DNA of 64,000 bases from Marsupella aquatica (lineage: Eukaryota; Plantae; Marchantiophyta). The stretch spans positions 31,999,112 to 32,063,111 of the forward strand of contig OZ316891.1 in assembly GCA_973895155.1 (NCBI GenBank), written 5' to 3'. Positions 5,917 to 58,954 of the stretch are shown piece after piece (positions within the stretch are counted from its first letter, which is position 1; each line of letters opens with the position of its first letter). The position numbers and the translations under genes were made by a program. Below the pieces are notes generated by a model. It had not been told where the DNA came from. It worked only from the letters and a program-made list of their open reading frames with translations, and did not search any database.

Positions 5917-5926
5917 AAGGGGAAGA
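5917..5926 (+). promoter_or_regulatory. Polypurine tract
   Basis: AAGGGGAAGA just before the TGTTG of the 3' LTR. Confidence 0.85.
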
Positions 5927-5927
5927 T

Positions 5928-31978: not shown

Positions 31979-34900
31979 CAATACGCCATCCAAGCGACGC
32001 AAGATTCAGGACGCACTGCCACCAGTAAGCATAAAAAATATAACCATTTGGAAATGCCTTCGCTCGAAGACTACATCCGACAATGACTCTAATCCATCAC
32101 TTGCTGCAATTATTGACGACGTCAATACGCGATCCAAGCAACGCAAGATTCAAGATGCAGAAGGGAATTTGGAGGTGGCGAGCATAGTAAAGAACCAGAT
32201 TGAAGGCCAACGACAGGAATTCTCGAAGGCCAATGCTTCCCGACCAAAATACCGACCCAACAATAATGCAAAAGGGAATTTGAAGGTGACAAGCACATTA
32301 AGGAACCAGATTGAAGGCTGGTACAGGAATTCTAGAAGCATTGACCAAGCTTTGTTTCCTTTGTATTTCTCACGAACCTAATTGAATGGTGACACTTTTG
32401 ATGCTAACGGAGTCCAATGGTTTCAACATGAACGTTATAGCTGCAAAAGACTTTAATTGGAAATGTTATGGGAGTGCGAGATTACAAGTGAGTCACCATG
32501 AATGCTAGTGGTGTATCACTAGTAGAAACCGGGGCATTTCGTGACCAGACCACTTGTGACTGGGGTGACCACGCAAGTGCAACCTTTGAACATCAGTCTT
32601 ATTTTTGAGACGCCATAAGACTAGATAGTCATAAGTAGTCATGTTTATGACTACTTAAGACCATTGAACTTTTTAAAAATCTTGATCTATTGAATGAGTC
32701 ATTCAAGTATGACTACATAGTCATACTTAGTCAACATATGACAATGGCCAATAGTAAGCCAAGTCCAATTTAGTCAACAAAATTGACTTGTCCATTAATT
32801 TTCATTGTGGCCATTGAACACTTTTTAAAATAATGTAGTGCCATATGCCTGGTTAGAGGATATTTACCCGATCCCATACACATTCTGAGCCATGGGATTA
32901 CGCTTTACATAGCCATTGACTGAACTATATGCAAGGGGCATAAGGGTTTGCTAGGGAGGCTTTTTTGTGGTTTTGTGTTACATGAAGTGCAGTTTAGGCC
33001 TAACTCATCCACATGCATGTAACCCTTCCTGCCAAAGTTTAGGGGGGGTTGTAGCAAGACACCTAAAGGGGGTTTAGGGGGGGTTTTAGCAAGACACCTA
33101 AAGGGGGTTTAGGGGGGTTATATCACAAGGGTGGGGGGGGGGTTATATCGATCTCAAGGGGGAGGGGGTTTAATCGGAGGACATGCACCATTGGATGGAG
33201 TTGATCGCCACCATCAGGTCAAACTTTTCCGTTCCCGCGTCCCGTTTAGTCGCACGTCCCGTTTAGTCACACATGTCTGAGCTTCCTTCGATCGGGTCCC
33301 GGGAGAGTTTGCAGACACCACTTGAGGCGGAAGTGCATCCTTGCGGTTGGCTAAGGTGCGCATTTCCTTCACTTTCCCTCGATGTTTACGAGCTCATTGT
33401 GGTGGTGTGGGTCCCGTCCATGCGTGCTCCCATTGTTGTGGCTTCCATCGCTGCGTGCTGGACACATTTAAGTCTTCCATTGCAAGTAGAGCGCATTTGC
33501 AGCTGCTTCAAGGGAGGTGATCACTACTGCTGTGGAAGGAGGGAGTCAGTCGGGAGTTTCGCTACTGCTGCGGAAGGCACTGCACAAGCTTTACTAATGC
33601 GGGACCTGTGTGGGAGGCGTAATAAAAGACTTAGGATCAAAGCCCGATGCTATCTAATCTCATTGCTTAGGGTGAAGTCTACTGCTATCCTTCTCTTCCA
33701 AGCGTATTGTGAGCTCAAACAACGTACGTGGGATTCCTGTGGTCTTACCGTTCAAGCTGCGACCAGTCTCAGGAGCAGCTCCTCAATCATCCCGGGCATT
33801 GGAGCTTAGTGAACTATAAGTGCGTGCATACCCTTCCAGCTGCGTCTTTTACTAAGGAGCTCATCAATCTTCTTGGGCATTGGAGTTGAAGTTATAGTTG
33901 AAGCCAAACCTTATTCAGTTCTTGGTGGGCATGAGAACTGAGCGCACAACGCACATTAGCAGCAACAAGGTCCAGGGACCATTTTTGTAGTTGCAAGTAG
34001 TGACGGTTTTGCTTTGGGAGTTGGGAGCTCCTACGAAGGAGGTCAGCTGAACAAGCCTCATTGCTATTGGGAGTTGGCATTGGCAAGGAGGGCGAAGGGA
34101 ACGGATTGGCAGCTGCAAGCTACATTGGAGTTGTTGCAACTAACTCAGGACATTGCAAGGGTGTGTTTCGGGTGAGTTTTTGGTTGAAGAACCGGGAAGA
34201 GCCTGCGGTTTGCCATCAAGGAGCTGTAGTTGGAGACCGGCCCTCGTACCTGCATTCTTCCATCCAGCACATGGGTGAGCGAAAGTCCATTTTTATCTCT
34301 CATTGTTTTTCTCCGACTCGTGCTTTGATCCAATGTATGTATTGCTGCTATGTCACCCTGTGAAGAGAGACTGGACATTGTAGCTACTCATTCTTGATCA
34401 TGTCATCAGGCATAGGACCTCAACTACGACGGAAAGATACCACATTCTGTGGGATCGATAGGACTGTTGTGCCTTGCGACATCGGTCACAGTGTGAGGAA
34501 AGGAGCAAGTTCACTACATTGCAGACGTCCAAGTGGCTCTATGCTTTGCTTTTATCAACCTACGACCGGCCAGCTGCGCGCTGCGATTTCAGTTTAGGGT
34601 GGTCTTTGGAGCTTCACATTTTCCCCGAACACACAGGTGCCTTCCTCTGTCTCTTCTACTATAGCTCTGTCTTGTGCTTTCATCGAAGCCCCTTGCAATC
34701 GGATGTTGAATGTGAAGACAAGACTGATTGTTGACACTGTACTGAATGCTAAGCCTCCTCTAAATCAATTCTGAGATGGGACTGAATGTTGAGATTCATG
34801 TTAGGTTTTTTGTGGTCGGAACACTCTGCGAAGCATTTCAATATATATGCATCCGAGTTCCCAATAAGTATTGACAGCCATCGCAGTCTAAAGTGGGCCT

Positions 34901-36735: not shown

Positions 36736-37189
36736 ATGGTGAGCACCCGCAATGCTGAACATGATTGTGCGGCTTGCATGCAAGGCAGAGAGGTTGCACC
36801 TTGAGTATGTCAGACTTGGGATCCTTCCTGCCCAGTCTGCATGGTACTTTGAGTACCTTGTTGTTGCCAGGAATAACTACAGCCGGCCTGTACCTACTTC
36901 TCCACCCTTCCCAGCATCCTTGGTATTTCTGTCTCTCGTACATGACCCACCACAAATTAGGGCCCAAGGGTGTGTACACAGTTGCCAATATGACTGTCCT
37001 GCCTGTCGGGCATCTGGCCCAGAGTTGGATGACCGTTCTCTTGGATGTCAATTTTTGCATAGAGCACAATGTATCATCTGGAACCACTCGCCATCCTGTA
37101 GTGTGCCTGGCAATGTCACTTGTCCTGGCCTCCCAGACCCCACCACTGGTGCTTTTGGTGTCTACACATGTTTGGATCACACGCTGTAG
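36736..37189 (+). pseudogene. CACTA cargo: Cys/His-rich ORF, copy 1 (4-nt insertion near the start)
   Basis: Homologous to 55532-55981. Confidence 0.5.
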
Positions 37190-40100
37190 AGGAGCACAGT
37201 TTGTCACCCCGTATGCACAGACCAGAGTGGAATGACCTCACACTTAATGCTCTGACTTAAGCACCAAGGATATTAATTTAAAATTTTGAAGTATGAGAAA
37301 TTTTGGGTAAAGTGTTTAGGGTCCAGAGTATATAACTTATCCTATTTTGGCTGCACTAAGTGGAATATTATAATGTAAGAATTAAGCAAGCTCTCTTTAA
37401 ATTCTCCATTCAAAGATTGCTTTAATATCTACTTTAACTTGGCCAACATTGTAACATTCTATGACAGAATTAATGGGCCATGCGATAACCTGCAAACATC
37501 CCTTACACGTATGACTTATTTGTCTCACTATCATAGCCTATATAGGATGTATAAACTAAGTACAACCCTCATCACATTGCTTGATCCCAATCTTGTTGGA
37601 AAAATGCCTATTTTTCATGTGATGACTATTGTATGTGATTCAAATGCATGAAATGTTGTTGCAGATCTTTTTTGGTGAATCACATCCACGAATTTGAGGT
37701 GTTGGTGGAGCAATTGTACTAGGGGTTTAGTTTTGTGTGTGGGCTCAACAAACCAAAAGTATGTCTGCTCTGCATCCTTGTGTGGCCATTGCAATTCATT
37801 GCAGTAGCAAATGCCTTTGTACCTTAAATGCTAAATTTTACTTTTTGTGAAGTCTGCTAAAGTACATTGTCTGTACAGTCTGCCAAAATGTATTGCCTAT
37901 ACCGTCTACTTAATTGTACTGTCTGTCTCATGCGTAGGTATGGCACGCCCCAAAATTCCAGCGAAAAAGCGTGTGATCGATAGAGGTGAGCAACACAGGT
38001 GTACCTGGGCCACATGTTACTAACTTCTCTGCAAGTCAGATTTTCCAGAAGGCAGCTCATTGTTGTGCCATTTGTGACGATGGTGGGAGCTTGGTCATCT
38101 GTGAGGGCCCTTGCATGAGGCATTTCCACCTCAACCCAAAGTCTCACCTTGCTGCAAAAAACAATTGTCCAGGGGTGGGCCTCCCGTCAACACACCAGGG
38201 AGACTGGATGTGCACTGGTTGTTTGGAAAAGCAGGCTAAGTGTGCACAGTGTGGGAAGTTGGGGTCCTATGAGGGCTCTGTTGATGCTGCACCGGATGTT
38301 AGGAAATGTCCAGACCATTTTTGTGTGAGGTTTGTCTGTTTTGAGTGTTTGCCTGCTCATGCCACAACTTGCTGTCAAACACTTGTCAAGGAGCTTAAGC
38401 GGCTTTTCTCCCCAAAAGACTACCTAATACCTTCTCCATATCATACCAGGGTCACAAAAAGATTTACAAAACTTCTGAAATGTGCCTACAATGTCTAATC
38501 ACTCCATACATAAGTAGTTTCAACTCTCCACTTCTAGAGAGGTAGTCCCCTTGACTACTTTTGTACTCACACCCTTCCTCTCTCCTCTACTCCAAGGATC
38601 AGCAAGGGGGATCTCCGCTCCAAGCTATCACCTTAGAGTAGATTCTCACACAAACACCCAAGAACCAAGGTACTTTCCTCTTCAAGCTTAAGTCTCCTCA
38701 ACACCCTCAAAGTAGTGTTACCCCTCAACCTTGCCCCCTGGCCTTGGTTTGGGTCCACACATCCCCCTTTGAGCTCTAGAGAAGGCTCCTCTATCTAAGG
38801 ACTCTTCCTCGTGTTCTTACTTCTTGTTAACACCACACACCAAGCAAAATACTTTCCACCCTCAAGCTATAATCCTTTCTAAGTCTCAAAGTAGTGCTCT
38901 ACCTTAACCTTGCCTCCTTGGCCTTGGTTTTGTACTAGCACATCCCCTTTGAGCTTAGACCAAGATTACATCATAGCATGGACTATTTTCTTGCTCTCAT
39001 ATACTTCAAATGCACTCACACTTAATGGTCACAATGAAGATTGGCAAGTCTCCTTTTATTGCATCACCTTTACAACAAAAGTTCACTACACATTCTCCAC
39101 ACTAAGCATGGACCACCTCTCCCTTCTCAAGCTTAGCCCTACCTTGGCAAGGTAGAGATTCCACTTAAGAGATGAGACTCCCGGTCCCTAACAAATAAAA
39201 ACTTACTCCTTATATACTATTCTCCTTCCACACCACACCAAGCTTGACCTGGGGTCCAACTACTCCTCCCCCAAGTCCTCCTAACACACAAAGTCCAACT
39301 CTATAATTCGTAGCCCACCCTACAACCTATTGTTTGCACTCCTTCCAAGCCCTGGAATATGCCACACATGAGTTGCATGCTTTGACCTCCAAACCTTCTC
39401 CCACTTATGGTCCTCCTCACCAGCTTCCCAACCCACTTGAAATCTTGCAAAAAGAGTGAGTGAGTCTCAAGGTGTGCCTAGTCAAAGATGGCCTTATGTT
39501 ACTTGTAACCCCTTTACTACCCTAAGTAAACTACCCCCTATACTTACTTTTCTTAACATGATGGCCTTACACCTTTGAAAAAAGGTAAGTACCCTTCCCT
39601 AGAGCCTAACTAAAGTGGTATGGGTGCAAGAAAGGTCAGCCCCTAAATCTGGTAGTTATTCCCCTATGCCGACTTTGGTTTGCAAGCTATCAGGACCCCC
39701 TCGTGGCCTCGGCTAAAAATATATTTGAGTGACTCTTTTTCTGGGTTTCCACCTTCACCAAGGGGTGCCTTATCTTTCCCTAACTCAACACAAAAAAAAT
39801 TGGGCCCCAACGGATACCCCTAGCCAAAGTTATGTCCATTCTCCCAAGGCCTGTTTTTGGTGTAAAGCGGGTGTAAGCGACGACCCGATTACACTTACGT
39901 TATACACCCCTTATGGAGATTCCAGGTGTCACCAGGGGAGAGTACTCTCATTATACTCACGTTTCTTATGAAGAATTTGATAAGGACATCAATTTTTGCA
40001 GCCATTTTCCTCTCTCTTGAATTCAATCTGAAAGTGCATCATTCTCTATTGGATTCTAATGGTAGCAGGTCAATCTACAGCTCAACCAGATTTGCAGCAC

Positions 40101-42845
40101 CCTTCTCAGTCCACCTCCATAGCCATCCAGCCTTGCAAGTGATTCAAAATCGCAGCATAATTTTGCAGCAGCCATAGCCCACCAATTCACAGCTAGCAGC
40201 ACAACAGCACATTCAAAGCACAGCAACAGATTCGAAGCACAGCAACAGCAGCCATAGCTTGATTCCTTCTCAGCAACTAGCTCTATTCCAATCACTCATC
40301 CAAACAGGTCTCTCTTCTCAATTTTGCAACTGCCCACCTCTGCAATTTCGCAGCTAGCAGCAATCCTATTTTGCAGCCATAGCTCTTCAATTCGCAGCAG
40401 CAGCCCTCTTCCTTGTTGATCCGCTAATCAATTCTTGTGCAGCAGTCCATCTGATCAGCCGCCAGCCCTTCAATTTCGTAGCCCACCATAGCTCATAGCC
40501 AACCAACTAGCTCTTGATCAGCAGCAGCCTATTTCTCCATAGCAAGCAGCTCTATTCCAATCAACAACATCAAGCAACCAGCCAATTCTAATCAGCATCC
40601 CATGCTTGAAGCTATAGTAGCTCAATTCAATTTCGTAGCTGCCTCTTGATCCCAATTCGAAGCAAGCATCTCATGTATTGACCCTTATGGTGTTCCTGAC
40701 CTCGTGCTTGAGTCGCCCCGGCCTCGTGCTTAAGTCGTGGTCGCCGCCGACGCGGTTGACACTTAGAAAAATTTCGGATTTTTTTGTTGGGAAAACAGTA
40801 TTTACAGGCTGTTTTGGACCGCCCCCAAAAATCACACATGAGTCCCAAATGACTTCTGAGTATATATACATATTTTCTAGACATAGGACTATGTACTGGT
40901 TTACTAATATCTAAACAAAACCTTATCACCGATTTTCTAAAATTAGGTAAAGTGGGTCAATTATTATGTTTTCCAAAATTCTTCTCACCTTTGAGATGCT
41001 CCCAAAAAGTAACCAAAGATACCCAGCTTCTACCACAAGTTTCCAGAGATAGAGTGGACCATATTTAACCCACTTCCAAACTTGGAACTCCTAAATTTAC
41101 TCATCAGCTATTTTTCCCGGGACCCGCTATTTTGTTAATTTAAGTCACACCAAAACACAAGGAAACCCTAGGTTGAGACCCCACTTGACATCTAACTTTT
41201 TAGGGGTGCTCTAGGGACCTCCTAGCATCTATGGGAAAAATATGAACCAAAACTAAGACTTCAAGTGTCGGGTTGTTTCCCCGGCTCGGAATAGTCGCCT
41301 AGTCTAAATAAGGACGGAACGTTGTATGCCCCATCATAAAGACCTTCTTATCCCTTGTCACTTGCTTAGAACTCAGTAACCTTCCATTCCACTTTCTTTC
41401 CTATTCTACCTACTTAAGTTCCTAAAACCTAGTTACTCCGATAGCACTTAAAACGTCTTTCTTACTATTCCTTGTTCAAAAAGCAAAAAAATGACAAGTT
41501 TCTTACATAAACCTATATCGAGCCATTCCACACTTGCCCAATTCATAGGTGCATGGCATGTGGTGAGCATGATGATGAGTACTTGGCTGACATAGTCCAC
41601 TGTGCTAGGTGTCCCACTATGTGGCACTATCATTGCTTGAAAGATCGTCAAGCAGAGGGTTATGCTTGTGACTGTGAGCCGCTCAATTAGTGGGTTAAAT
41701 TAGTTTTAGGTTAGATTTTTTCTTTTTTGTTCTAAGTAAGCATATTATGCCTGTAAATGAGTGAGAAGTAGAAGTGAAGCTGAAGTAAACTCTCTTCAGT
41801 ATAGCAGAGTAAGAAAGTTTCATTAGTTTAAACCACGGTTAACTTAATAGTGGATTAGTGGATTAGATAGGTAATCAGATCCTTAGAGTTTGTAATTTAG
41901 GCTGAGATTTTTTCTGAAGGTTCTAGGCAGGCCCTGGAGAACCCTTGTAAAAGTGCAAGTCATTTCAACCGTTCAATTAGAAGCTATTTACAGTGGAACA
42001 AAACTTAAAATAGCCAACTTGCAGGACCTAGGGAAAATAGCCAGAGAGCAACAAATGTATTTTGAAGGCTAGCCATGGTGTTACTATACCTAACAATATC
42101 CCTCAGAATTACTAAACCTTGTTTTGGACTTATAGATACTTTTTGGGAGTGGTCCGAATTCTGTAAAAGTAGCTATGAAGTATGACGGATTGCAGACTTT
42201 GAACAATTATAAAAAAGCCAAGTTTAGTTATATATCAACTCTAAGAATTGTTTTAGGAAGCCCTAGGGCTAGGAAATCCAGGAGTATGTTCATAATAGTT
42301 TTTTTCCTTATGAGTGAGTTTTGAGCTATAGGCGAAGATGGCTAATGTTAAATGCCATAAGTAGCACTTAAAGGGAGACTTAAAGGGAGGAAAGTTCTTT
42401 GTGCTTACAAAGGGGTAATTCAGCTGCGTAGAGAAACGTGGTGGACTCATTTACATCTGTAAAGGGCAGGGTTACAATGTAAAAGAGCTAGCTAAGGCCA
42501 GGTGTCGAGCCCAGAATTCAATAGAGCAAAAATCAAAGTGAAATTGAAGGGAGAATGGAGCTCAACGAGAATCAGAAGACCTGAACTAGAAGAGGAAATT
42601 CTGGAGCACGAATTAAAGGAGAACACATGGAAGGGAAATTAATAGAGAAGATTGAAATTTCTGAATCAGAGAGAATATTTTACAGAAAGGAGAAGTCATC
42701 GACTACTAACAAGGGGGCTCTTCAGGCGAAATCAACTTGCACCTTCCATAGGGGAACTTCGAGGTGACAACAGTGGACAGCTAGAAGACCATTTCCTCAG
42801 CTAGGGTGATTGACAAGAAATCTGAGCTGTGGCCCTTAACTTCAG

Positions 42846-43068
42846 GAATTGAATGTAGTATCAAGTCCATAGAGGTATTTCTGAAATTAGAATGGCTGTT
42901 CTTTGGACTCAAGAATTGAATGCAGGATTAGTATCAAGTCCATAGAGATATTTCTGAAATTAGAATGGCTGCTCTTTGGACTCAAGAATTGAATGCAGGA
43001 TTAGTATCAAGTCCATAGAGATATTTCTGAAATTAGAATGGCTGCTCTTTGGACTCACAAATTGAATG
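42846..43068 (+). repeat. 73-bp tandem repeat (3 copies)
   Basis: GAATTGAATG...TAGTATCAAGTCCATAGAG units at 42846, 42913 and 42986. Confidence 0.9.
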
Positions 43069-43557
43069 CTACCAAGGTCAACCGACAATCGAGAGAAGAA
43101 CACATGGAAGGGAGATATTTTTGTGAGAATGGAGGGCTGGTATGAACAGAAGCACCAGCCAGACTTCCTTCAAATAAGCCACGATCCCTTCAAACAAGTT
43201 CAGTTCTCTAAGTCCTAGCTTAGTTCTCTCCTTGCTCCAAACTGAATCAGGCAAACCGAGTTTACACCAGTAACTAAGCCTTGAGATAAGGTTGACCCTA
43301 GTTTAAAGTGACAATATCGATGGGTTCTGCTGAAACCTGAATAAATCGCTTAGTTTAGACTCAATCGGAGTACTTTTAAATGCATTGGAAAGCTATCGAC
43401 GGTGGCTAGAGGCTGGCACAAGCTAGGAGGATTGGGAGTTCACTAAGATTCTCTTGGAAGTCAGGTTGTATAACAGTTTGATATTGCCAGCTACTTGAGA
43501 GGTTTCGATTGTGGTAAGGCTCTAAAAGGAGGTCAAGTGGGACTACAATCAAAGTGC

Positions 43558-43902
43558 ATGGCTGATCCAAGAGTTCCTGATCCAAGAGGGCTACCTGATC
43601 ATCACTTTCCTCCCCTGGTCCACAAGGCTAAGTTCACCTTGTGGAGTAAGCATGGGAGAGCAAATGCCGACCCCGACATTTGGCTGGCCCAATACCTAGC
43701 TTGCTCAAAAGTGGACAAGAGGGGCAGAAGTTCAAATCTGAGGGCTTTCACCAAGGTGTACCTCAAGCATTTCAGAGAGGACAACCAGATTACCAAGCCA
43801 CTAACCAGTATGGTAAGGAAGTACCATGCTTGGGTCATTCGCAAGGCCCTAATCGGATGGGTGAGGCCTGGAGAAGGGCTCTTTCATGTCAAGGGGACCT
43901 AG
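43558..43902 (+). CDS. Small protein encoded inside the LTR-like insert, homologous to 13801-14100
   Basis: MADPRVPD...KFTLWSKHGRANADPDIWLAQYL...KALIGWV. Confidence 0.6.
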   Translation: MADPRVPDPRGLPDHHFPPLVHKAKFTLWSKHGRANADPDIWLAQYLACSKVDKRGRSSNLRAFTKVYLKHFREDNQITKPLTSMVRKYHAWVIRKALIGWVRPGEGLFHVKGT

Positions 43903-45593
43903 GCTGGTTCTGGAGTCCAGGAATAAGGAGGTTAAGGAGTGGAGTCCTTAAAGCCAACATGGAGGATACCTAAGGACCTGAGTTACATGCAGACTTGGAG
44001 GAACTTGGAGGGCCATTGGAAGTTGATCCCTCTACTATTTTTAGAGCTATTTTGTAGATAGGGATGACTGTACTTTGGAGGCTGACTTAGTCCCTGATTT
44101 GGAGGGATAGGACAGCCAAGTCAGGAGGTGAGGTGGACCTGAATGAAGGGCTGAAATCAAGGAGTTGATTTAGGCTTTCAAAAGGTCACCAACTAGCTGA
44201 CAAACAAGTGAGTTAGTGAGATAGTTAGGAGGATAAGTAAGGATCTTTGACCCCCTTGAAAGGTGGGCTGGTCTTTTTTTAGTGATGAGTCACTTGCTGG
44301 CCTTTGGGGTGGTTTTGGACTTTGTGATGAGTTGGAGCCAAGCAAGGAGTACTTCAGTTGGTGTGAGTTACTTTGTGTGGGTCCAAGTATGGAGAATCAA
44401 GGAGTAGCACTAAGAGACCTTAGGGGAACTAAGGTAGATGTTCTAGGGGTACTAGAACTCAAGTGTATGCCTTGAGGCTTGAAAGGACCATAGTGTTAAG
44501 TAGTAGGAGTTGAAGAAGCTAAAGTATAGCAAGTAGGTAGTGACAACCTACCCATGTACTTCCTTTGAAATTCTTATGAAATTTCAGCGCATTTCTGGGA
44601 AAGAAATTGTTGATGTGCACTCATCTGAAATCTTGAGGCCCTTGTGGTCTAGCATGTTTCTCATATGATCTTTGTGACTCCAGAAGTCTTCTCTTTGGGT
44701 AAGGGAGACCTAGATTAGTTGTCTTGCCGGGTAGGGGGACATTTCCAGCGGTGGAAACCAAAGAATACCCATTTCTGGTGACGAAAACCAAATACATTTG
44801 CACAGTCTCAAGGAGAAGCAAAGGCTTAATGGAAATAGAGGTAGTTCCTTCTTATGGAGCGTCCCTCCCGTAGTTCCTGGTGATAAAGAGCTATCAAGTG
44901 CAAGCTTTTAGTACAATAAGGCTTATTAGCTCAGAAGCGAGGGTTTGACAGTGACAGAGAAATCTATGATCACTCTGCACATGGTGTTGATCGATGGATA
45001 TTTTATTGTCATCACCATGCCATTGATCCTACCTTGCGCACTCCTATGAGAGATCACATATCTTGGCTGTGAAGCTGAACATTGTACATGCACAGGGCAC
45101 CTAATGTGGATGTACTATTTTTGGAGATTGCAGAGATTCCAATTTTGAATAGGAGTTGGGTAGGCGAGTTTATATAGGGAGCACTTATCCTGTGCCCTGG
45201 CGTTATTGGCTGGGTACATGCCTATAAAAACTTATCCTTACAAGCCTTCTTGGAAGTATTTAGACTGAGTGGTCATTTTCACAAACACTCTCATCAGACT
45301 GCTAAATTAAAACAGGACTTCAAAGTTGTAAGCATTAGGCATGCAATTAATCAAATTGCCCTATAAGTTTGTCATTGAATGTATCCTCCTTTACAACAAA
45401 ATATGTATGTGCGGCCATGACAAGTTGGTTGCACTTCATTTCACCTTTGATATGGATTTCCTAGTATATACTCAAACAATGTCCTACATCGGTGCAGGTG
45501 CCTAGTACTTATTGTTCACATATCCCCTATACCTATCAAAATTGGACCGGATCAACTTAAAAAGCAGGAATTTTGGTGTCCTTCTATTGGCAG

Positions 45594-46515
45594 GTGAACC
45601 CATTCTTCCAATATTCACTCTCATCACGTAGGGTGTGTGTACATGGAGCCTGGGAAACGTAGAAAGTGTGACCACCCAGTAGTGTTTACAGGGGTCAGAG
45701 CCATTTTGGTCCATGGCCAGCATGGGTTGACCAAAGTGCATTGGCCAACTGTACAGAAATGATTCTCTGAGCTCCATGGCACTGTACTTCAGGACATCAC
45801 TCCAGAGACTACACATGTTGTTGCAGGGACATGGCTATCAGTGATAAACAAGTGGTCATGGTCCTACATGAATTCTGCAATTACTAAGCAAGGCCTAAAA
45901 GTAGTTGAGGCCTCTTGGATCACAGATTCCATAGCACATCAGATTGTACAGGATACTGAGCATATGAATTGTGGGAGGATGAAGAAGCTACTGCATCAGC
46001 TTGGGCTGAACAAGAAGTCTGGGAAGCAAAGGCATGGTTTGCTGATGTCCAATATGGACCTGTACTCAACAAAGGACAAAGCTCAAGAAGGCTGAAGAGT
46101 ATGTTGGCTGAGGAGATGAAGCAACCAACCCCCATTCTGAAAGGGCTGAGCATGGTTTTTGTGGAGGCGGGAATTGGAGAGGTTAAGTGCAAAGTGTACA
46201 AGTCCACAGTGCTTGACCTAGGTGGGACAGTGGAGGAGAATATAACAGAGGACACCACTCATGTCATTACTAAGTCATATCCCAAAGCCTGCCGCAAGTT
46301 TGGGAAGGGTGACATTCGCTTTTATGTCATGTCCCATAAATGTGTTGGTGGTTTCATATGCTTGGCTTGTGCAATCAGTAGTAGCTGGGAAGCCTCAAAA
46401 CCCAATGGACTATGATCTTTTTGAGGCCTGGCCACGGAAGGGTCAGGATCCTCACAGTGAAAACTATGTGACAACAAGTGAGGAAGGGGTCATTAGCGAT
46501 TCTGAATCAGAGTGA
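45594..46515 (+). pseudogene. CACTA cargo: tandem BRCT protein, copy 1 (one stop and two frameshifts)
   Basis: Homologous to 57489-58409; LGGTVEENITEDTTHVI and SWITDSI BRCT motifs. Confidence 0.8.
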
Positions 46516-46561
46516 GGACTACATAGTAGCATCAGTTTTGAGACAAGCTTTTTGTACAAAT

Positions 46562-48996
46562 TGTGACGCCAATGACATGGTCCTTATTTTGTAATCTGAT
46601 TAAGTAGGTTGCTGTATGCAAGGAGTAGCTATTGATATTGCATAACAATTAGCAAGATGGCAAGAATAAGCAATCATGGCGTTAAGAGTAGGGAAATAAA
46701 AGCTATGTCGCAGGTGGTCGGCGACCATATCTCTTTCAATATGTCACCAAATCCGGATCTGTAAAGAGCATTGGAAAGATCTGGTCAAGGCGAGTAAAAT
46801 CGATGTAAAACACTCGAGAAACGGAGGTGTATTAAGAAAGATACGGCCTGATTAGTGTGACGGGTTAACTTATGGCCGGAATTAGCGGATTCGGCTTCAG
46901 TTTCGGGTTAACCCAAGCTCGACCACGGCTTAGCTTATGTGAGCATGGCTTCAGCTTAGCTCAGGTCAGCACGGCTTCAGCTTAGCTCAGGTAAGCACGG
47001 CTTCAGCTTAGGCTTAACCCGGGTTCGGATTAGATTGATCCCGGGTTAGACTTAACTCGGGTTAGCCTAAACTCAGGCTCAGGTTAGCATAGGTAAGCTC
47101 GGGTTCGGGCTCAGCTTAGGCTAGGATAGCGGATAGCGGATAGCGGGTAGCGGGTAGCGGCCTAACCCGAGACCACGGGTTAGCTCTACTCGGGTTAGAT
47201 AGGATAGCTAGGTTAGCCGAACTCGGGTTAGCTATGTAACTCGGGTTAGCGCAACAGTGAGTACCCCCTCTCGGTTACGGGGGCATAACTCTCTGTGTAT
47301 TTGACCAAATCGGCTATAATTGACCTCGTTGGAAAGAGGAGCTCAAGCCGCTTCCAACGCTGTTATCCACGTAGCAAATGGTTGAATACAGAAATCGGGA
47401 GAGGAGGCGTAAGCTCGCGAAAACCATGGAGGAGGGCCGAATCCGAAGTACATAGCCAATTCGAGATAGAAATAAAGTTTCGAGTTAGGGTTCAGTAGTT
47501 AGAGATAGTGGCGGCTCTGTTAGGGCTGGGATGGGGCTCCAGCAGCGTAGCATCCACCCATTTGGGCTCAATGAGAGAGTATATAGAGCAGCCCTCTGGT
47601 AGAGGCAGAGGGGGGGGGGAACTTCAGTTGTGTGATCTCACTTAGACTGAGCAGCAGGGAAAAGCTTTGTGCAAGCAAGGCTGGACTTGGACGCTGCGTG
47701 TTGGGGAGAGCTTGGTTGTGCTATTACTCAGGGAGTAATCAGCCAAGCTTCACAGCAACGGGTTGCTAGGTTTGCGAGCTGGATTGTGGCTCTTTCTAGT
47801 GGGCAACACAACTGGGTTCTTTTCCCCCGATACATAGCCTTGGTGAAGGTGATGTGTTGGTGATTGTAAACTGTGGGGAGGATTTCAATGCGATTTGCGG
47901 TGGGCACATTAGGGAGGCTGAGGTACTGATTTAGGGGCAGCAGGAGGAGCATTTACAGTTCAGTCTGGCAAGGCTACATGATCCATGGGGAGTCCCGGCC
48001 TTTGTCTGGTGGAGAGCACTAAGGGATCTATGGCCAGAGCTGAGCTTGCAGGGCAAGCATGAGGCCGGGCCTCATTGTAGTCTGGGGTAGATCGCCGTTA
48101 GGCCTGGTACCAGCTTTGAAGTCGAGTCAACTGTGCATGCGTACTTGACATTCTGAAATGGAGGTGTGAGATCTGTACGTGCCCCCAAGAATGAAGTGCA
48201 GTGAAGGAGGTTGAGTTCAGGATTGAGTTTGCAAGGCAAGTACGGGATTGGTTCGAGTCCAATCTGCCATCGCAATCTGGAGTGAGCCGGGCTCAGGTTC
48301 AGGATTGAGCTTGCATGGCAAGCACGGGGCTTGCGGGGCAAGCACGTCGCAATCTGGAGGAGACAGCCTTCGGGCCTAGTGTTCGGATCAAGTGTTCTCA
48401 GTGAACTATTGTGCACATCTTTGAATCCAATTGAGTTTTCCTTTCAGGCCTCATTTCTCTCATGGATGTGTGTGTGTGTGAGGCAATCTGAGTGTATGAT
48501 GAGACTAGCAGTGCCACTGAGAGGTGTACCGGGTGCATTGAAGTGGGTTGGGTGAGGGCTGTCACAGCTCTGATTGCTGAGAGTGGAATGGCAGAGTGGT
48601 GGGGCAATGGCTTAGAAGTCCCTAAGCCGGGAATCAGTCAGGAGTCACTGGTTTATGGGTACATTCCGGCGGCGGAATAGAAACATACCTATGACAGTAA
48701 GCATACGTATAGACCTATGCGCACCGTAGCGCTAGGCCCTGTGTGTACGGGCCCGATATGAAGACCCCTTCTCACCAGAACTATCATGAGCGCAGATCTG
48801 ATCCCCAACCTTGGTTCCTTGGGATTGAGCTTGGGTGATGTGTGATAGAGCTTTGCTATGATAGTCTGGTGTTAAGGGCATAAATTGGTGTTTACCGGCC
48901 TTCACAACATCCCTTCGTGATCCTCAGGTACAAGGAGATGGTTTTGGCACCCATAGTGACGTCTTTGGTGTTAAGACCCATGTCAATCGCATGACA
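46562..48996 (+). mobile_element. Solo LTR (2435 bp)
   Basis: TGTGACGC...GCATGACA; TSD CAAAT (46557-46561 and 48997-49001); absent from the paralogous block near 58450; internal CTCGGGTTAG-type low-complexity repeats 46860-47250. Confidence 0.88.
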
Positions 48997-49046
48997 CAAA
49001 TCACATCTTTTAAATAAATGTGATATTTGAACTAACGTAGCTTGTT

Positions 49047-49649
49047 ATGGTTGGTCGCAGTTGGACTTATTTTACTGTTGGCAGATTGTTGTTTCCTGTT
49101 GCCTGGGGGTGTCACTGTAAACTTACTAGGGGTGGGCTCAAATCTTGGCAGCAGACTTTGGTGGGTATGTTGCCTTTCCTACATCACCAGGCGCTATGTA
49201 GGCTCCTCCTACGGGTTGCCACATGGCTGGCCACTGTTTGGACTCTCCTGCATGGGTTGGTGTTGAAACATATTTTGGCACCGCCTGAGGATGCAAGAGA
49301 CGATGAATCTTATTTTTCAGCAGATGAAATAGAAGAGCATAATGTTGTCGGGACTTCCTTGTTGCCTGGTTTGCCAGATGATATAATGTTGTCAGATGTG
49401 TGGCTCAGAATTCTTCTATGGTCAACCGCACAAGACATTTGCAAATATAGACTAATTAGCACACAATGGAGGGACTTGGTAGCTAGCTCCCCCCAGTGGA
49501 GGGCATTACAACCACTTCTTGTAGGCACAGATCGAACCCCACCCTGGTATGCCCATGGCATACTCCTTGATGACCTGATGTACATGCCAGTGTACCTCAG
49601 GTGTGAATACCATCGAGAACAGGGTGGGTATCCAGATGAGCTCTGGTAA
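49047..49649 (+). CDS. CACTA cargo: F-box-domain ORF, copy 1
   Basis: SLLPGLPDDIMLSDVWLRI...ICKYRLISTQWRDLV resembles a plant F-box; start codon uncertain. Confidence 0.65.
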   Translation: MVGRSWTYFTVGRLLFPVAWGCHCKLTRGGLKSWQQTLVGMLPFLHHQALCRLLLRVATWLATVWTLLHGLVLKHILAPPEDARDDESYFSADEIEEHNVVGTSLLPGLPDDIMLSDVWLRILLWSTAQDICKYRLISTQWRDLVASSPQWRALQPLLVGTDRTPPWYAHGILLDDLMYMPVYLRCEYHREQGGYPDELW

Positions 49650-52600
49650 TAACGTGACACTAGAAGAAACCGGCCCTATCTGAGACCCTCCCTTACATGA
49701 CTTACTTGAGACCTTTGGAAATCAGTGACTCCAAGGTTATTGGTGTCATCTTTGTTACACCTTCTCAACTAAGTTTTGGTGAATTTTTGGAGAGTCGTAT
49801 CTTTAACTATTTGGAGTGTTGCAATTGGAACTTAGTGTAGGCAATTATTTTGAAGTTTTATAAGTGACTCAGCACAATTATAATAGCGCTTTCTGCCATC
49901 TTTATCACCATGGTTGCACATATATAAGAACAATGTAACTTTGGCTCTTATTAAATAATAATCTCGGCCCACATCCCAAATCCAACCCATACATATATAC
50001 TTTATTTGTATGATTCACAAAATGATTATAGGTGTGGCTATATATACCTGAGGCCGGTGCAATTGCAAGTCGCGCGCCATGATGCAGGCCACTGGTTAAT
50101 TACTCCATCATACAAACAAAAAGACACACACTAAACCCACTAACATCATTTGGCAACGTTCTGTCTCCAAATATACCCCTTGGCCAATTTCAAATGGTTG
50201 CAGCTCCCTTCATGTAGGAATATTGAACGGCCCAATATAAGGGACTCTTTTTGTTAAGGGTACAATGTAATGCCTTTGCCGCAAGACCACTTCTACCTAC
50301 TCTTCCTTGTAATATGTGTTGCCCTCAATTGGCTTCATGAACCCCTTCACCTAATGGACCATGCCGCAAGTTTCCACATGCTACATGGTAATGCCTTTGC
50401 CCATCGAGTGTTTTGCCCGAACCCCTTGTGCCAAAACCCATGGGAGAAACAACGAGTGCCTTTGCGCGCATAGAGTGTCGGCATTTGGTGAGCGGGAAGG
50501 AAGAGCCAAACATCGTCAGGCTTGGGCTTTCGAGTGAATCCTATCGAGCTTCTTTGAGTGTCTTGTCTCCGCGCTTGCAGGAGACCCTGCTTGGATTCTT
50601 GCTACTATTGGGAGCTCGGGGTTGGAAGGAGGGTTGAGTCATTGGTGGTGGAAGGAGCTGTGGGTTTAGGAGGCTGCTTATTGCGAGCACAAAACATTGC
50701 AGCGGTGACATTGCTAGGTTTTGCGATTGTGCTGTGGGTTTAGGCCGGGTTACTATGAGCTTATGTTGTTGCAGCACTACCGTGGATAAGGGGCTGTGGA
50801 GGACCGAGGAGCTACGACGTAGAACTGAGGAGCTGCAAAAAAGTGGGGAGTGATCTTGAAGGCCAACTATCTAGCGTGAGGTGGATCATCGTGGTTGCAA
50901 TAGCGACCGGGCCCTGTTTTGCATTGGCACTGTCAGTAAGACAGTTTGTGGACGCGCGAAAGAGTCGCAAGGAGTTGTTCTTGCGGGCTGACACAACTTC
51001 ATGGGAGTGTTGAAGGTTTAGGGTGAGCAACAGTGGAGAGCTCATTGCTTGGTGGCAGGATTCAAGGTCGTCGGCACATTGTGGACATCTCACAAAGTTC
51101 ATTGTGTGAGGTGGATGATAGGGTTGCAAGGCCAACCGGGCCCTACTTTTGCATTGAGCAATGTGAGTGAGGTGAGGGGACCTATTGCTACCCTTTATGT
51201 TTGCGCTCCCATTGCCCCGATTATTGCTTGACAGCTTGCTGCGGAGTTTGTGAGGAGAGCGGAGTTTGTGAGGAGAGACATTGCAACCCTTTCTCGAACA
51301 AAATCTCTGGAGGTGGATAGGGTGGCCGCATTTTAGGTTTGTGGAGGACATTGTTTTGCTTGCATTTGCATTGTTCTTGTTGCGGACATTGGATTTCAAC
51401 AGCGAGGCTTTGAGGCGGAGTTGGAGTGGAGGTGAACATTGATCTCAACTGAGTGAGTTTGAGCTGCAACATAGGTGGACATTGCATCTGCTTTGAACCG
51501 CACTCCTCGGGAACAACTCTGGCATTTAAGCTTTCGGCGCTTCTCTTACTGCCGTGAACAACTCTGTAAGGTTGTAGGCAATAGTGCGCTTAGTGAGGTC
51601 CTACTTAGTCAAGAGCAACTTCTTCCTATCAAAGACACGCTTGGGATCCCAAACTCACATGATTGTCTGTTGAATGTGCTTTTTCACTGTCTCTCCCCAC
51701 GTCTCTCTTGGCAAAACTAGATGATACTCCAGCCTTTTACGATTCCTCTGTTTCATCAGTGTGTCAATCACTCCCTCACTTCTCATACCATAGTTACCTT
51801 CCCTATCAACATCGCTCTCATTGGAGCTGAAATCATCTTCTTGCGTCCTTCACAGCATCTGCTTAACGTTTGTGTAACCGGGAGTTACCAGGCCCTTTGA
51901 GTTTTTCATTGTTTGCCTATGGTGCTGGCATTATTGTCACACTTGTTCTCATTCCGCAGTGCACTATTTGCAATTCAATTATCCTTCAGAATTCTGTCAA
52001 AAGGTGAAGTATTAGTAAGTCCGACTACATTTTCCCTTTACTCACAATTTCATTTCATAATCGCCTACGTGTGGGAGCATTCCACAAACTGAGCAAAGGT
52101 GCAACTGTGGTGGAGATATGCGGAGCTGAGCTAAGCTAAATCTTGGCAGGTCCTCATCAATTGAGCGCAGGCTGGACTGACATGAGCGTTACTATTCAAA
52201 GAGGAAGCTGCTGAGTGCATGGAGCTGCAATTGACATTTGGTACTAATTGCTGATTTTGTTGGAGCTTCCTTTGCGCAAGCTAGGTGTATTCTGACCTTG
52301 GAGCTACCGGGGCCGCTACTGGAAGGTACTATTGCTCCTGACTACCATGACTGTAATGTCGGATATATGCGTGAATTGTCGTTTGAGTAATGCTTGTAAA
52401 ATCTTGTAATGCTTGTAAAATCTTTCAAAGTTTGTGAAGGTAAGATAAACTGTGGAGTCTCTCTGTCATTCTTCTTGTTCCAAGCCTACAACTCGTCCTT
52501 TTTGCCATGTCCTCTTCTGTATCCTGTTTTGTATCTTGTATTTTGTCACTTTAAATTGTCCATGATGTTGTGAGATGTTTCATTCGTTCTAGTTCGCTCT

Positions 52601-54518: not shown

Positions 54519-55531
54519 CTGGTAGACACATTATTCAGCATTTGCTAACTTCAAAACTAGAAGGGTAACACATTAAACAACAGAGAAACTCACAAGTTCA
54601 TCCTCCTTTGGTCCTTTAGAGTCTGTACTTTGATTATGAAGTTTGACTGAGTTTCTATTTACTGAAAGAATGTGACTGTGTAAGAGTTCCGTTTGGCAGT
54701 GGATTGGTTGAAGCACTTCATGCTAGTGTGTTGTCCACAGCTCTTCAACCAGCTTTCGTATTCCTTGTCTTTCACCACTTACGATGACATCAATTCAGCT
54801 AAGACCATAGAAGGTTCCAAAGCATCTAACTTGTAAAATCGCATTCTGTTACATCAAGGACTAAGGTGTTGGGTGCCAAAGGAGACAGCACAACAAACAC
54901 GCTGAAAAGACTTCAGGACTAGGTTCAACAAGGTAGTGAAGGTGCTTAGAGCCATAGTAAGTATGCATTCTGTATCTTTCTCTGTTGATGTGAGCTTGTG
55001 CATAATGGGAGTTGTAGTTGGCAAGAGTTCCAAATATGAATAGATCCAGAAGTATGTGATCATGTACTTGCTCTATAAAGTTCTGAAGATATAAGCATTT
55101 TCTGTTAGACCAGGCAACTTGGGAGTTGGTAAGTGTCCCCTGCATCTGAGGGGCTACACCAGGGGCATCAGTGGAGGTTCACTTGCACAACACGACAGCC
55201 AGTGAATTTTCTCTCTACTGCAACCTGCAAGGTGAGACTTTCGGTCTTTCTGGATGAAAAAACAGGATTTTAATATGATTGATATACATGTCCGTTGAGA
55301 ACATGGGTTTATCACCAAGCTCTTTGTCTTAGGAAACTCATAAACTCAGAATCAAATATGTACTATGCATGTTTCATGCTATGTGTATACTATGACCTGT
55401 AGTTGGAACCAAGACAGTGAGTGGGAACTGATTAGTTTAGGTTGGTTGCTGTTGGCAAGGCAAGTCAACCTCCTGCTCACCTTGCTCATCAAAGGACGTG
55501 AATAGAGGACATCACAACAAAAGCAACACTT

Positions 55532-55981
55532 ATGGTGAGGACCCGCAACGCTGAACATGTGCGGCTTGCACGCAAGGCAGAGATGTTGCACCTTGAGTAT
55601 GTCAGACTTGGGATCCTTCCAGCCCAGTCTGCATGGTACTTTGAGTACCCTGTTGTTTCCAGGAACAACTACAGCCGGCCTCTACCTGCTTCAGTACCCT
55701 TCCCGACATCCTTGGTATTTGTGTCTCTTGTACATGACCTGCCACAAATTAGGTGCCAAGGGTGTGTGCACAGTTGCCAATATGACTGTCCTGCCTATAG
55801 GGCTTCTGGCCCAGAATTGGATGACCGTTCTCTTGGATGCCGATTTTTGCACAGAGCACAATGTATCATCTGGAACCACTCGCCATCCTGCAGTGTGCCT
55901 GGTGATGTCACTTGTCCTGCCCTCCCAGACCCCACCACTGGTGGCTTTGGTGTCTACACATGTTTGGATCACATGCTCTAG
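55532..55981 (+). CDS. CACTA cargo: Cys/His-rich protein of unknown function, copy 2
   Basis: 149-aa ATG ORF with CQGCVHSCQYDC...CRFLH...CIIWNH...C...C...CLDH; conserved with copy 1; the true reading frame is ambiguous. Confidence 0.5.
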   Translation: MVRTRNAEHVRLARKAEMLHLEYVRLGILPAQSAWYFEYPVVSRNNYSRPLPASVPFPTSLVFVSLVHDLPQIRCQGCVHSCQYDCPAYRASGPELDDRSLGCRFLHRAQCIIWNHSPSCSVPGDVTCPALPDPTTGGFGVYTCLDHML

Positions 55982-56750: not shown

Positions 56751-56978
56751 ATGGCACGGCCTAAAATTCAAGCCAAAAAGCGTGTGACAGAGGTGAGAAA
56801 CACAAGTGTACTTGGGGCAGATGCTACTAACTTCTCTGCAAGTCAGATTTTCCAGAAGGCAGCTCATTGTTGTGCCATTTGTGACAATGGTGGGGGCCTG
56901 GTCATTTGTGAGGGCCTTTGCATGAGGCATTTCCACCTCAACCCGGAGTCTCACCCTAAACATGCACAGTGCACCTGA
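56751..56978 (+). pseudogene. CACTA cargo: EDM2-type PHD ORF, copy 2 (internally deleted)
   Basis: MARPKIQAKKR...CAICDNGGGLVICEGLCMRHFH, then jumps to sequence equivalent to 45085. Confidence 0.8.
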
Positions 56979-57488
56979 TGTGGATGTACTATTTTTGAGA
57001 TTGCAGAGATTCCAATTTTGAAAAGGAGTTGGGTATGCGAGTTTATATAGGCAACACTTATCTTCTGCTTTGGCGTCAGTGGCTGGGTACATGCCTATAA
57101 AAACTTATCCTTACAAGCCTTCTTGGAAGTATTTAGGCTGAGTGGTCATTTTCATAAACACTTTCATCAGACTGCTAAATTAAAACAGAACTTCTAAGTT
57201 GTAAGCGTATAAATTATCAGGCATGCAATTAATCAAATTGCCCTATAAGTTTGTCATTGAATGTATCCTCCTTTACAACAAAATATGTATGTGCCATGAC
57301 AAGTTGGTTGCACTTCATTTCACCTTCGATATGGATTTTGTAGTATATATTCAAACAATGTCCTGCATCCGTGCAGGTGCCTAGTATGTATTGTTCACAT
57401 ATCCCTTGTACCTATCAAAATTGGACCTGAGCACCAGTGGGCCAGATCAACTCAAAAAGCAAGAATTTTGTTGTCCTTGTATTGTCAG

Positions 57489-58409
57489 GTGAACCCATTC
57501 TTCCAAAATTCATTGTCATCACGTAGGGTGTGTGTACATGGAGCCTGGGAACGTAGAAAGTGTGACCACCCAGCAGTGTTTATAGGGGTCAGAGCCATTT
57601 TGGTCCATGGCCAGCATGGGTTGACCAAAGTGCATTGGCCAACTGTACAGAAACGATTCTCTGAGCTCCATGGCACTGTACTTCAGGACATCACTCCAGA
57701 GACTACACATGTTGTTGCAGGGACATGGCTATCAGTGATAAACAAGTGGTCATGGTCCTACATGAATTCTGCAATTACTAAGCAAGGCCTAAAAGTAGTT
57801 GAGGCCTCTTGGATCACAGATTCCATAGCACATAAGATTGTATAGGATACTGAGCAATATGAGCTGTGGGAGGATGAAGAAGCTATTGCATCAGCTTGGG
57901 CTGAACAAGAAGTCTGGGAAGCAAAGGCACGGCTTGCTGATGTCCAATATGGACCTGTACTCAACAAAGGACAGAGCTCTACAAGGCTGAAGAGTATGTT
58001 GGCTGAGGAGACGAAGCAACCAACCCCCATTCTGAAAGGGCTGAGCATGGTATTTGTGGAGGCGGGAATTGGAGAGGTTAAGTGCAAAGTGTACAAGTCC
58101 ACAGTGCTTGACCTAGGTGGGACAGTGGAGGAGAATATAACAGAGGACACCACTCATGTCATTACTAAGTCATATCCCAAAGCCTGCCGCAAGTTTGGGA
58201 AGGTAGACATTCGCTTTTATGTCATGTCCCATAATGTGTTTGTGGTTTCATATGCTTGGCTTGTGGAATCAGTAGCAGCTAGGAAGCGTCAAAACCCAAT
58301 GGACTATGATCTTTTTGAGGCCTGGCCACGGAAGGGTCAGGATCCTTACAGAGAGGACTATGAGACAACAAGTGAGGAATGGGTCATTAGCGATTCTGAA
58401 TCAGAGTGA
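57489..58409 (+). pseudogene. CACTA cargo: tandem BRCT protein, copy 2 (single TAG at 57843, which is CAG in copy 1)
   Basis: Two BRCT repeats: VFIGVRAILV...LHGTVLQDITPETTHVV...SWITDSI and ILKGLSMVFVEAG...LGGTVEENITEDTTHVI...AWLVESV; acceptor CAG at 57486-57488. Confidence 0.85.
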
Positions 58410-58705
58410 GGAGTAGTAGCATCAGTTTGGACACAATTTTTTTTGTATAAATCAGATCATTGAAATAAATGTGATCTTTGAACTAATGTACCTTGTTATG
58501 GTTGGTGGCAGTTGGGCTTATTTTACTGTTGGTGGATTGTTGTTTCCTGCTGCCTGGAGGTGTCACTGTAAACGTACTGGGTGGGCTCAAATCTCGGCGG
58601 CAGACTTTGGTGGGTATGTTGCCTTTCCTAGATCAATAGGCGCTATTACGGCTCCTCCTCCGGGTTGCCATATGGCTGGCCACAGTTAGGACTCTCCTGC
58701 ATGGG

Positions 58706-58954
58706 TTGGTGCTAAAACATTTCTTGGCACCGCCTGAGGATGCAAGAGATGTTGAATCTATCATGAATGAGGATGCACAGTCCAAAGTGGACATCTACTT
58801 TTCAGCAGATGAGTTAGACAAGCCCGATGTTGTAGGTGGTTCCTTGTTGCCTGATTTGGCAGATGATATAGTTCTTTCACATATCTGGCTGAGGGTTCTT
58901 GTGGTGTCCTGTGCACAAGATATCTGCAAATATAGATTTAATGTACATGCCTGA
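58706..58954 (+). pseudogene. CACTA cargo: F-box ORF, copy 2 (internally deleted)
   Basis: SLLPDLADDIVLSHIWLRV...ICKYR; homologous to the region from 49258 onward. Confidence 0.6.

What the first reader, a model, noticed from the sequence alone, without database searches (positions are those of the whole stretch)
37940..45072. Stand-alone, transposon-encoded EDM2-like PHD module
Seen: NLS-like start MARPKIQAKKR (intact in copy 2), PHD1 and PHD2 and, after the 6.6-kb insert, a tail IFYCHHHAIDPTLRTPMRDHISWL* that is missing from the ORF track and ends in a stop at 45070-45072. Known: Arabidopsis EDM2 PHD fingers bind H3K9me2-containing marks, and the ASI1-AIPP1-EDM2 complex allows full-length transcription through heterochromatic TE-containing introns. 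Inference: a PHD-only protein lacking the EDM2 C-terminal domain could act as a decoy or recruiter that lets the element's transcripts be produced despite H3K9me2.
Basis: partly seen in the sequence, partly recalled or inferred. Interest (0 to 1): 0.8.

Follow-up and report, generated by a model that had tools for sequence, protein, structure and literature searches.

The report
Transposon-borne stand-alone triple PHD gene
Two broken copies of a small gene for three EDM2-type zinc fingers lie inside two nested CACTA DNA transposons, and intact relatives elsewhere suggest an old, likely plant-transposon accessory protein that is predicted to read histone tails for the element's benefit, with its target and role untested.

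Summary
The module is real, but the anatomy needs correcting. The gene is in three pieces (37940-38372, 41538-41672, 44956-45072). The '6.6-kb insert' is two TG...CA insertions with 5-bp duplications, and half of PHD3 lies between them. Copy 1 is also frameshifted. Copy 2 is intact only at its start and has lost everything from mid-PHD1 onward.

The pieces are 84% identical to an unbroken 226-aa protein (P0001). It belongs to a clade of short PHD-only proteins (support 100/99) apart from host EDM2; the clade's origin is unresolved. Both window copies follow CACTA termini in the order ORF-X, PHD, tandem BRCT, F-box, and copy 2 runs on into a TNP2 transposase. No other family member has usable context, so the transposon link is shown in this genome only.

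The acidic residues that precede PHD1 in 88 of 89 host proteins are absent in 22 of 22 short-clade sequences. That weakens the idea of an EDM2 decoy reading the same mark. Best reading: an element-encoded chromatin reader, likely part of an anti-silencing kit; function untested. New variant of a known kind; interest 0.52.

The parts
32517..32532 (+). 5' terminus of CACTA element 1
   Evidence: 15 of 16 bases identical to the terminus at 49658; the paralogous flank at 11624-11879 runs on without it, as an empty site would
36743..37189 (+). ORF-X, about 145 aa, Cys/His-rich in its second half, unknown function (copy 1)
   Evidence: open in both copies; dN/dS 0.32 in this frame against 1.18 and 0.89 in the other two; no homolog found
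37940..38372 (+). PHD gene piece 1: basic start, frameshift near 37970-37982, PHD1, most of PHD2
38373..41532 (.). Insertion 1, TG...CA, 5-bp duplication CTTGC, solo-LTR-like, longest stop-free frame 109 codons
   Evidence: joint 38367 to 41533 in 2 contigs of run X3
41538..41672 (+). PHD gene piece 2: end of PHD2 and first half of PHD3
   Evidence: PHDvar_NSD E 7.7e-5, below the curated cut-off; own profile E 8.6e-16; in frame with both neighbours
41673..44950 (.). Insertion 2, TG...CA, 5-bp duplication GTGAC, solo-LTR-like
   Evidence: joint 41667 to 44951 in 3 contigs of X3 and 2 of X7
44956..45072 (+). PHD gene piece 3: end of PHD3, EDM2-type tail, stop
45452..46514 (+). Tandem BRCT gene, copy 1, with stops and frameshifts
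   Evidence: BRCT assigned through copy 2
46562..48996 (.). Insertion 3, TG...CA, 5-bp duplication CAAAT
   Evidence: joint 46555 to 48996 in 2 contigs of X1
49041..49657 (+). F-box-containing frame, copy 1; element 2 inserted just after it
   Evidence: Pfam F-box 22.2 bits, cut-off 20.5
49658..49673 (+). 5' terminus of CACTA element 2, nested in element 1
   Evidence: the homologous point in copy 2 (59020) runs on without it
55502..55981 (+). ORF-X, copy 2
56751..56978 (+). PHD gene copy 2: start in frame, deleted from mid-PHD1
57300..58409 (+). Tandem BRCT gene, copy 2, in two adjoining open frames split by one stop
   Evidence: Pfam BRCT 22.7 and 32.4 bits, cut-off 21.3
58449..59020 (+). 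F-box region remnant, copy 2, with an internal deletion
59597..63098 (+). CACTA TNP2-type transposase gene in several broken frames
   Evidence: Transposase_21 E 1.1e-65; DUF4218 E 3.9e-27; DUF4216 E 2e-4, below cut-off

Best explanation
The window holds two dead copies of a stand-alone triple-PHD gene inside nested CACTA transposons, and the intact gene likely encodes a transposon accessory protein that is predicted to bind histone H3 tails and would help the element's copies escape silencing. Shown: the anatomy, the shared gene order in both elements, unbroken 217-245 aa relatives, a separate clade and conserved zinc ligands. Inferred: an ancestral CACTA took the PHD cluster from an EDM2-family gene, dropped the flanking domains and kept a basic N-terminal tail (likely nuclear import or DNA contact). 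The mark it reads likely differs from EDM2's, because the acidic segment before PHD1 is gone while the acidic residue after the fourth cysteine is kept.
For: Both copies follow a CACTA terminus verified by an empty-site comparison and share the order ORF-X, PHD, BRCT, F-box; copy 2 continues into TNP2. The three pieces are in frame without a stop from 38040 on and are 162/194 identical to P0001 and 147/194 to P0002. Contigs of other runs join across all three insertions. Twelve short sequences form one clade, 100/99, in 200 of 200 bootstrap trees, on a stem of 1.18. Ten short relatives with 26-91% pairwise identity keep 15 invariant cysteines. P0001 folds at pLDDT 88 with a 78-row alignment, and its top fold matches are multi-PHD histone readers. 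An acidic residue follows Cys4 in 19 of 23 short proteins; in AIRE the likely equivalent D312 binds H3R2 (PMC2261226, passages). ORF-X and the second BRCT show dN/dS 0.32 and 0.27 between copies. L001 is a relative carrying a premature stop, as expected of a multicopy mobile gene. Precedents for transposon accessory chromatin factors: TnpA and VANC, TET/JBP in fungal EnSpm, PHD-bearing RAG2L.
Against: The transposon link rests on two related elements in one window; their 3' ends lie outside it. The only other locus fetched (L001, 1.5 kb) shows no transposase or neighbouring cargo. No histone binding, expression or effect on silencing was shown. dN/dS on the PHD itself is uninformative: 36 codons, 3 synonymous and 4 non-synonymous changes, and a wrong frame gave 0.25. 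The PHD-BRCT spacer is as conserved (5.3% divergence) as the PHD half (6.4%). Fold matches have low whole-chain TM-scores (0.20-0.29). Loss of the acidic segment could also mean weaker or no H3 binding, as with AIRE D297A. That PHD, BRCT and F-box act together is inferred from adjacency alone.
Confidence: 0.45

Rival explanations
1. The protein is an integration-targeting or activating subunit: it reads a histone state and steers the CACTA transposase there, as the RAG2 PHD does for RAG1.
For: It lies upstream of, and on the same strand as, the TNP2 gene. Element 2 inserted into element 1 and the surroundings are a repeat nest. RAG2L proteins of RAGL transposons carry PHDs, one of them a double PHD (PMC10462144, passages).
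Against: No interaction with the transposase was tested. Nesting can reflect where insertions are tolerated. The PHD gene has no recognisable transposase-binding domain.
Confidence: 0.2
2. The short PHD family is a host gene family, or a captured passenger, that these two related CACTA elements carry without benefit (Pack-CACTA-type capture).
For: PHD-only EDM2-like proteins are annotated as host genes: P0044 in Marchantia (280 aa), P0033 in Eleusine (320 aa), P0150 in Brachypodium (311 aa). Both window copies are dead. Context is unknown for the other members. Pack-CACTA capture is documented (PMC13317346, passages).
Against: Those host PHD-only proteins fall outside the short clade. None of the 9 short-clade proteins looked up has an NCBI or UniRef entry. 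Several members are cut short or run out of frame and L001 has a stop. A whole coding unit from start to stop sits in fixed order with three other genes.
Confidence: 0.22
3. One reading: the protein competes with, or recruits partners of, EDM2 in the ASI1-AIPP1-EDM2 complex so that element transcripts are made full length despite H3K9me2.
For: The homology covers the whole EDM2 PHD cluster including the tail. EDM2's PHDs bind H3K9me2 and the complex promotes distal polyadenylation (PMC7890070, PMC7529245, passages).
Against: The acidic segment before PHD1 is absent in 22 of 22 short sequences and present in 88 of 89 host ones. PHD2 has Cys for the His ligand (14 of 23 match the Cys pattern, 0 keep the host motif; 89 of 95 hosts keep it) and lacks a segment of about 20 residues. 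I found no paper mapping AIPP1 binding to the PHD cluster. The host lineage and its EDM2 are unknown.
Confidence: 0.12

Closest known systems
EDM2 / EDM2-like plant PHD proteins
   Same: Same NSD-type PHD cluster and the same C-terminal motif; 72 of 181 aligned residues identical to P0003.
   Different: No N-terminal DNMT1-RFD-like domain, no C-terminal region, no acidic segment before PHD1, rebuilt PHD2, separate long-stem clade, located in CACTA elements.
NSD1-3 PHD cassette
   Same: Best solved-structure sequence hits are NSD2 (E 3.6e-9) and NSD3; Pfam NSD-type PHD models match below cut-off.
   Different: No SET or PWWP domain; carries the EDM2-type tail, which the NSD-like outgroup row lacks.
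CACTA/Spm TnpA and Mutator VANC anti-silencing factors
   Same: Separate accessory gene inside a DNA transposon; TnpA activates elements while H3K9 methylation persists (bioRxiv 10.64898/2026.08.24.746577, passages).
   Different: TnpA is a helix-turn-helix DNA-binding protein derived from the transposase; this one is a predicted histone reader derived from a host family.
RAG2L of RAGL transposons
   Same: Transposon-encoded accessory protein with PHD fingers.
   Different: RAG2L has a kelch core that partners RAG1L; here the PHDs stand alone and are of EDM2/NSD type.
TET/JBP genes in fungal EnSpm and other DNA transposons
   Same: Chromatin-related gene carried by CACTA-type elements, proposed to aid escape from silencing (PMC12730594, passages).
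   Different: An enzyme acting on methylcytosine, in fungi; here a non-catalytic reader.

Membership tests
EDM2 | NSD-type atypical PHD cluster with the EDM2 tail motif | tested here: met
EDM2 | N-terminal DNMT1-RFD-like region | tested here: not met
   only 30-50 residues precede PHD1 in full-length members; Pfam finds RFD in P0003, P0018, P0025 but not in P0001 or P0002
EDM2 | C-terminal PGR, methyltransferase-like ELP and proline-rich regions (PMC7529245) | tested here: not met
   0-8 residues follow PHD3 in 9 of 9 members measured; host median 635
EDM2 | Acidic segment before PHD1 | tested here: not met
   0 of 22 against 88 of 89; 6 of 95 host rows did not match the search pattern
EDM2 | Nests with a host EDM2 ortholog | tested here: inconclusive
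   own clade 100/99, position open; union with liverwort paralogs not rejected, p-AU 0.467
EDM2 | Binds H3K9me2-containing tails and AIPP1/EDM3 | not testable with these tools
   needs binding assays
CACTA (EnSpm) element | CACTA terminal sequence | tested here: met
   5' ends at 32517 and 49658 with empty-site comparisons
CACTA (EnSpm) element | TNP2 transposase (Transposase_21, DUF4218) | tested here: met
   element 2 only; element 1 is cut by element 2 before that point
CACTA (EnSpm) element | Matching 3' inverted terminus and 3-bp target duplication | not testable with these tools
   no matching 3' end in the window; no genome is held
CACTA (EnSpm) element | Subterminal repeat arrays | tested here: inconclusive
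   an 8-mer four times in element 1; nothing clear in element 2
Solo LTR (three insertions) | TG...CA ends with 5-bp target duplication | tested here: met
   3 of 3; the parent retroelements were not identified
NSD methyltransferase | SET and PWWP domains | tested here: not met
   Pfam scan of P0001 and P0002
Transposon anti-silencing factor | Reactivates or demethylates cognate elements in trans | not testable with these tools
   needs expression in planta

The most novel reading that the evidence does not exclude
An old lineage of plant CACTA transposons carries a modular chromatin kit taken from the host: an EDM2-derived triple PHD with altered mark specificity, a tandem BRCT reader, an F-box adaptor and a novel Cys-rich protein. 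Together they would recognise silenced chromatin on the element and remove or block a host silencing factor. This would be a reader-and-degrader anti-silencing system, unlike the DNA-binding TnpA and VANC types.
Probability: 0.2. Interest if true: 0.85.

Novelty: new variant of a known kind. Interest (0 to 1): 0.52.

Why it matters
The plant transposon anti-silencing factors I read about (TnpA, VANC) recognise DNA sequence. A CACTA family that has long kept a host-derived histone reader, beside BRCT and F-box genes, would show another route: using the host's own chromatin code. The intact 220-aa members are also natural minimal versions of the EDM2 PHD cluster, for which the structure searches returned no solved plant structure. 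They make its mark specificity directly testable by comparison.

Tried and rejected
No whole genome is held, so copy number, 3' termini and the host EDM2 could not be examined. The run search listed 7 holders in 5 studies and no RNA holder; this says nothing about expression. Depths are sums over contigs and were not used as copy number. A per-site survey of variants across the PHD exon was not obtained, so family-wide dN/dS is open. The first metagenome scan found 0 relatives among 475 pattern matches; the second found 1 among 87, too short to show context. A fold from a 4-row alignment failed (pLDDT 42). ORF-X: 0 of 8 candidates scored; no usable Atlas hit, low recognition score; the Pfam scan used its other open frame, so the favoured frame was not scanned against Pfam. 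Four look-ups of earlier scan notes were empty. Rejected: the insertions as introns (ends are TG...CA with 5-bp duplications, not GT...AG); one 6.6-kb insert; copy 2 as an intact gene; the PHD as an exon of a longer protein (less likely: 11 of 23 short relatives have M-A/T-R followed by a mostly basic stretch within their first 30 residues, though an acceptor-like AG lies just before the ATG in both copies). No complex prediction was run: no AIPP1, ASI1 or histone sequence was at hand, and adjacency alone did not justify one. One EDM2 binding paper asked for by id was not held.
Full report
OBSERVATION. The start, PHD1-2 and the tail are at the stated places. The 39-aa tail aligns to the EDM2-like proteins P0003 and P0004 with scores 75 and 71; 0 of 1000 shuffles reached either. 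The gap is not one insert. It is 38373-41532 (3160 bp, CTTGC duplicated) and 41673-44950 (3278 bp, GTGAC duplicated), both TG...CA, with a 135-bp coding island between them. A third such insertion lies at 46562-48996. Read from 38040 across the two insertions, the gene gives 194 residues with only the final stop, 162/194 identical to P0001 and 147/194 to P0002. Contigs from public runs join 38367 to 41533 (X3), 41667 to 44951 (X3, X7) and 46555 to 48996 (X1), with 5-6 letters fitting either side, which matches the duplications (4 of the 7 listed runs were laid, their kind is not on record, likeness was set at 80, and the table shows only the best-supported joints). Copy 1 has 4 extra bases after the start relative to copy 2. 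Copy 2 (ATG 56751) is in frame but deleted from mid-PHD1 to beyond the stop. Both are dead. CpG is depleted in the PHD pieces (observed/expected 0.18; window 0.52), consistent with long methylation (inference).

CONTEXT. The window is a nest of repeats. Two CACTA termini, at 32517 and 49658, share 15 of 16 bases. Each has a paralogous flank in the window that continues without the element. Element 2 inserted into element 1 just after the F-box frame. Both carry ORF-X, PHD, tandem BRCT and F-box in that order, and element 2 continues into Transposase_21 (E 1e-65) and DUF4218. The 3' ends lie outside the window and no genome is held. Between copies, dN/dS is 0.32 for ORF-X (135 codons, 16 synonymous and 18 non-synonymous changes) and 0.27 for the second BRCT (122 codons, 6 and 6). 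The last BRCT segment gave 2.75 (55 codons) and the first had no synonymous change. The PHD half is too short to judge, and one spacer is as conserved as the coding parts. Evidence for selection from these two copies is therefore modest.

FAMILY. Word-index searches gave 4 hits each. The HMMER search of 1.84 billion representatives gave 248 hits at E up to 0.001, of which 150 were listed; the 7 best are all 166-245 aa. Full-length short members have 30-50 residues before PHD1 and 0-8 after PHD3. A FastTree of 135 of 167 regions (32 dropped for covering under 80% of the profile) put 12 short sequences in one group at 98. An IQ-TREE of 48 rows that I chose gave the short clade 100/99 on a stem of 1.18, with its position among EDM2-like groups open. 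In a 26-row set, joining it to the liverwort C-terminal-PHD paralogs was not rejected (p-AU 0.467), nor was a host-only clade (0.505). The outgroup was a Chara braunii PHD protein and an unnamed one, picked for their stronger match to NSD-type Pfam models; they are not true NSD proteins. Of six rows I labelled algal, two were confirmed by name, one carries a 'Mesen1' tag and three were not identified. So the family is of EDM2 type and distinct, but its donor is not identified. None of the 9 short-clade proteins looked up has an NCBI entry. L001 holds a relative that starts MARPKIKAK and has a premature stop, with no recognisable neighbours in 1.5 kb. The host organism was not determined; a plant is inferred from the EDM2-type cluster and the TNP2/DUF4218 architecture.

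STRUCTURE AND READING. P0001 folds confidently with a 78-row alignment (pLDDT 88, residues 1-25 disordered). Top fold matches are PZP and NSD PHD5-C5HCH domains, with low whole-chain TM-scores. Sequence hits among solved structures are NSD2, NSD3 and AIRE. In AIRE PHD1, D312 binds H3R2 and D297 binds unmethylated K4 (PMC2261226, passages). The short clade keeps Asp after the fourth cysteine (19 of 23; Glu in the window copies). It has no acidic residue in the six positions before Cys1 (0 of 22, including both window copies), against 88 of 89 host proteins of 600 aa or more (6 of 95 did not match the pattern). These rows are related, so the counts reflect one change, not many. Mapping AIRE residues onto this family is my inference from motif position. 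PHD2 has Cys in place of the host His ligand and lacks about 20 residues. I infer retained H3-tail binding with a changed K4 pocket; loss of binding is also possible.

MECHANISM. Best (0.45): an element-encoded histone reader serving escape from silencing, likely with the BRCT and F-box neighbours. The general roles of tandem BRCT and F-box domains are recalled, not tested. Rivals: host gene or passenger (0.22), transposase targeting (0.20), AAE decoy or recruiter (0.12). The last is weakened by the altered reader surface and by annotated host PHD-only EDM2-like proteins in Marchantia and grasses, which lie outside the short clade.

LITERATURE. Passages read: PMC7529245 (EDM2 domains and partners), PMC7890070, PMC9292364, PMC2261226, PMC12730594, PMC13317346, PMC10462144, PMC13547354. 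For bioRxiv 10.64898/2026.08.24.746577 I read passages and section 6. 'PHD' has 0 occurrences in the main text of that preprint, PMC13547354, PMC13317346 and PMC12730594. Searches pairing CACTA/EnSpm with PHD, EDM2, BRCT or bryophyte terms listed no title or abstract start describing such an element; I saw only the listings. I did not open supplements; the preprint's survey of 962 Spm proteins or Repbase itself may already hold such a class, and subscription journals are not covered.

VERDICT. The feature is real and its anatomy is corrected here. It works like a transposon accessory chromatin factor and is not a member of EDM2 proper. The transposon link is shown in one genome and the function is untested. 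New variant of a known kind; interest 0.52.

Noticed in passing
window 36743-37189 and 55502-55981: ORF-X: two overlapping frames are open in both copies; only one shows low dN/dS. No homolog in the protein search or the Atlas.
   Followed up: partly
window 45452-46514, 57300-58409, 49041-49657: Tandem BRCT and F-box genes as CACTA cargo next to the PHD gene; their relatives were not searched.
   Followed up: partly
window 1-6348: Copia-type element with matching 274-bp ends (99.6%) and gag and pol frames separated by one stop; looks young. An 18-bp tandem array lies at 5954-6097.
   Followed up: no
window 21619-23184 (-): 521-codon frame matching Pkinase_fungal above cut-off, overlapping a repeat (23010-25124, paired with 7433-9542): a kinase possibly carried by a mobile element.
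   Followed up: no
window 25125-29786: About 4.7 kb present in only one copy of a repeat, with long frames (25408-28875) that give no Pfam match above cut-off.
   Followed up: no
window 30374-31507 (-): 377-codon frame without a Pfam family inside the repeat paired with 9537-11625.
   Followed up: no
window 38373 and 44950: The first 8 bases of insertion 1 are the reverse complement of the last 8 of insertion 2, suggesting related termini in opposite orientation.
   Followed up: no
window 37930-37942 and 56741-56753: An acceptor-like AG two bases before the ATG in both PHD copies, suggesting a 5' untranslated intron.
   Followed up: no
P0014, P0017, P0019, P0026, P0031, P0044: A well-supported clade of EDM2-like paralogs that end at or soon after the PHD cluster; five were named as liverwort proteins, one of them PHD-only in Marchantia.
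   Followed up: partly
P0033, P0150 (named as grass proteins), P0099, P0127, P0042: Short PHD-only EDM2-like proteins in two groups outside the short clade; some also begin with M-A-R plus basic residues. Their genomic context was not checked.
   Followed up: no
L001 754-1428: Diverged family member with a premature stop at 1081-1083.
   Followed up: partly
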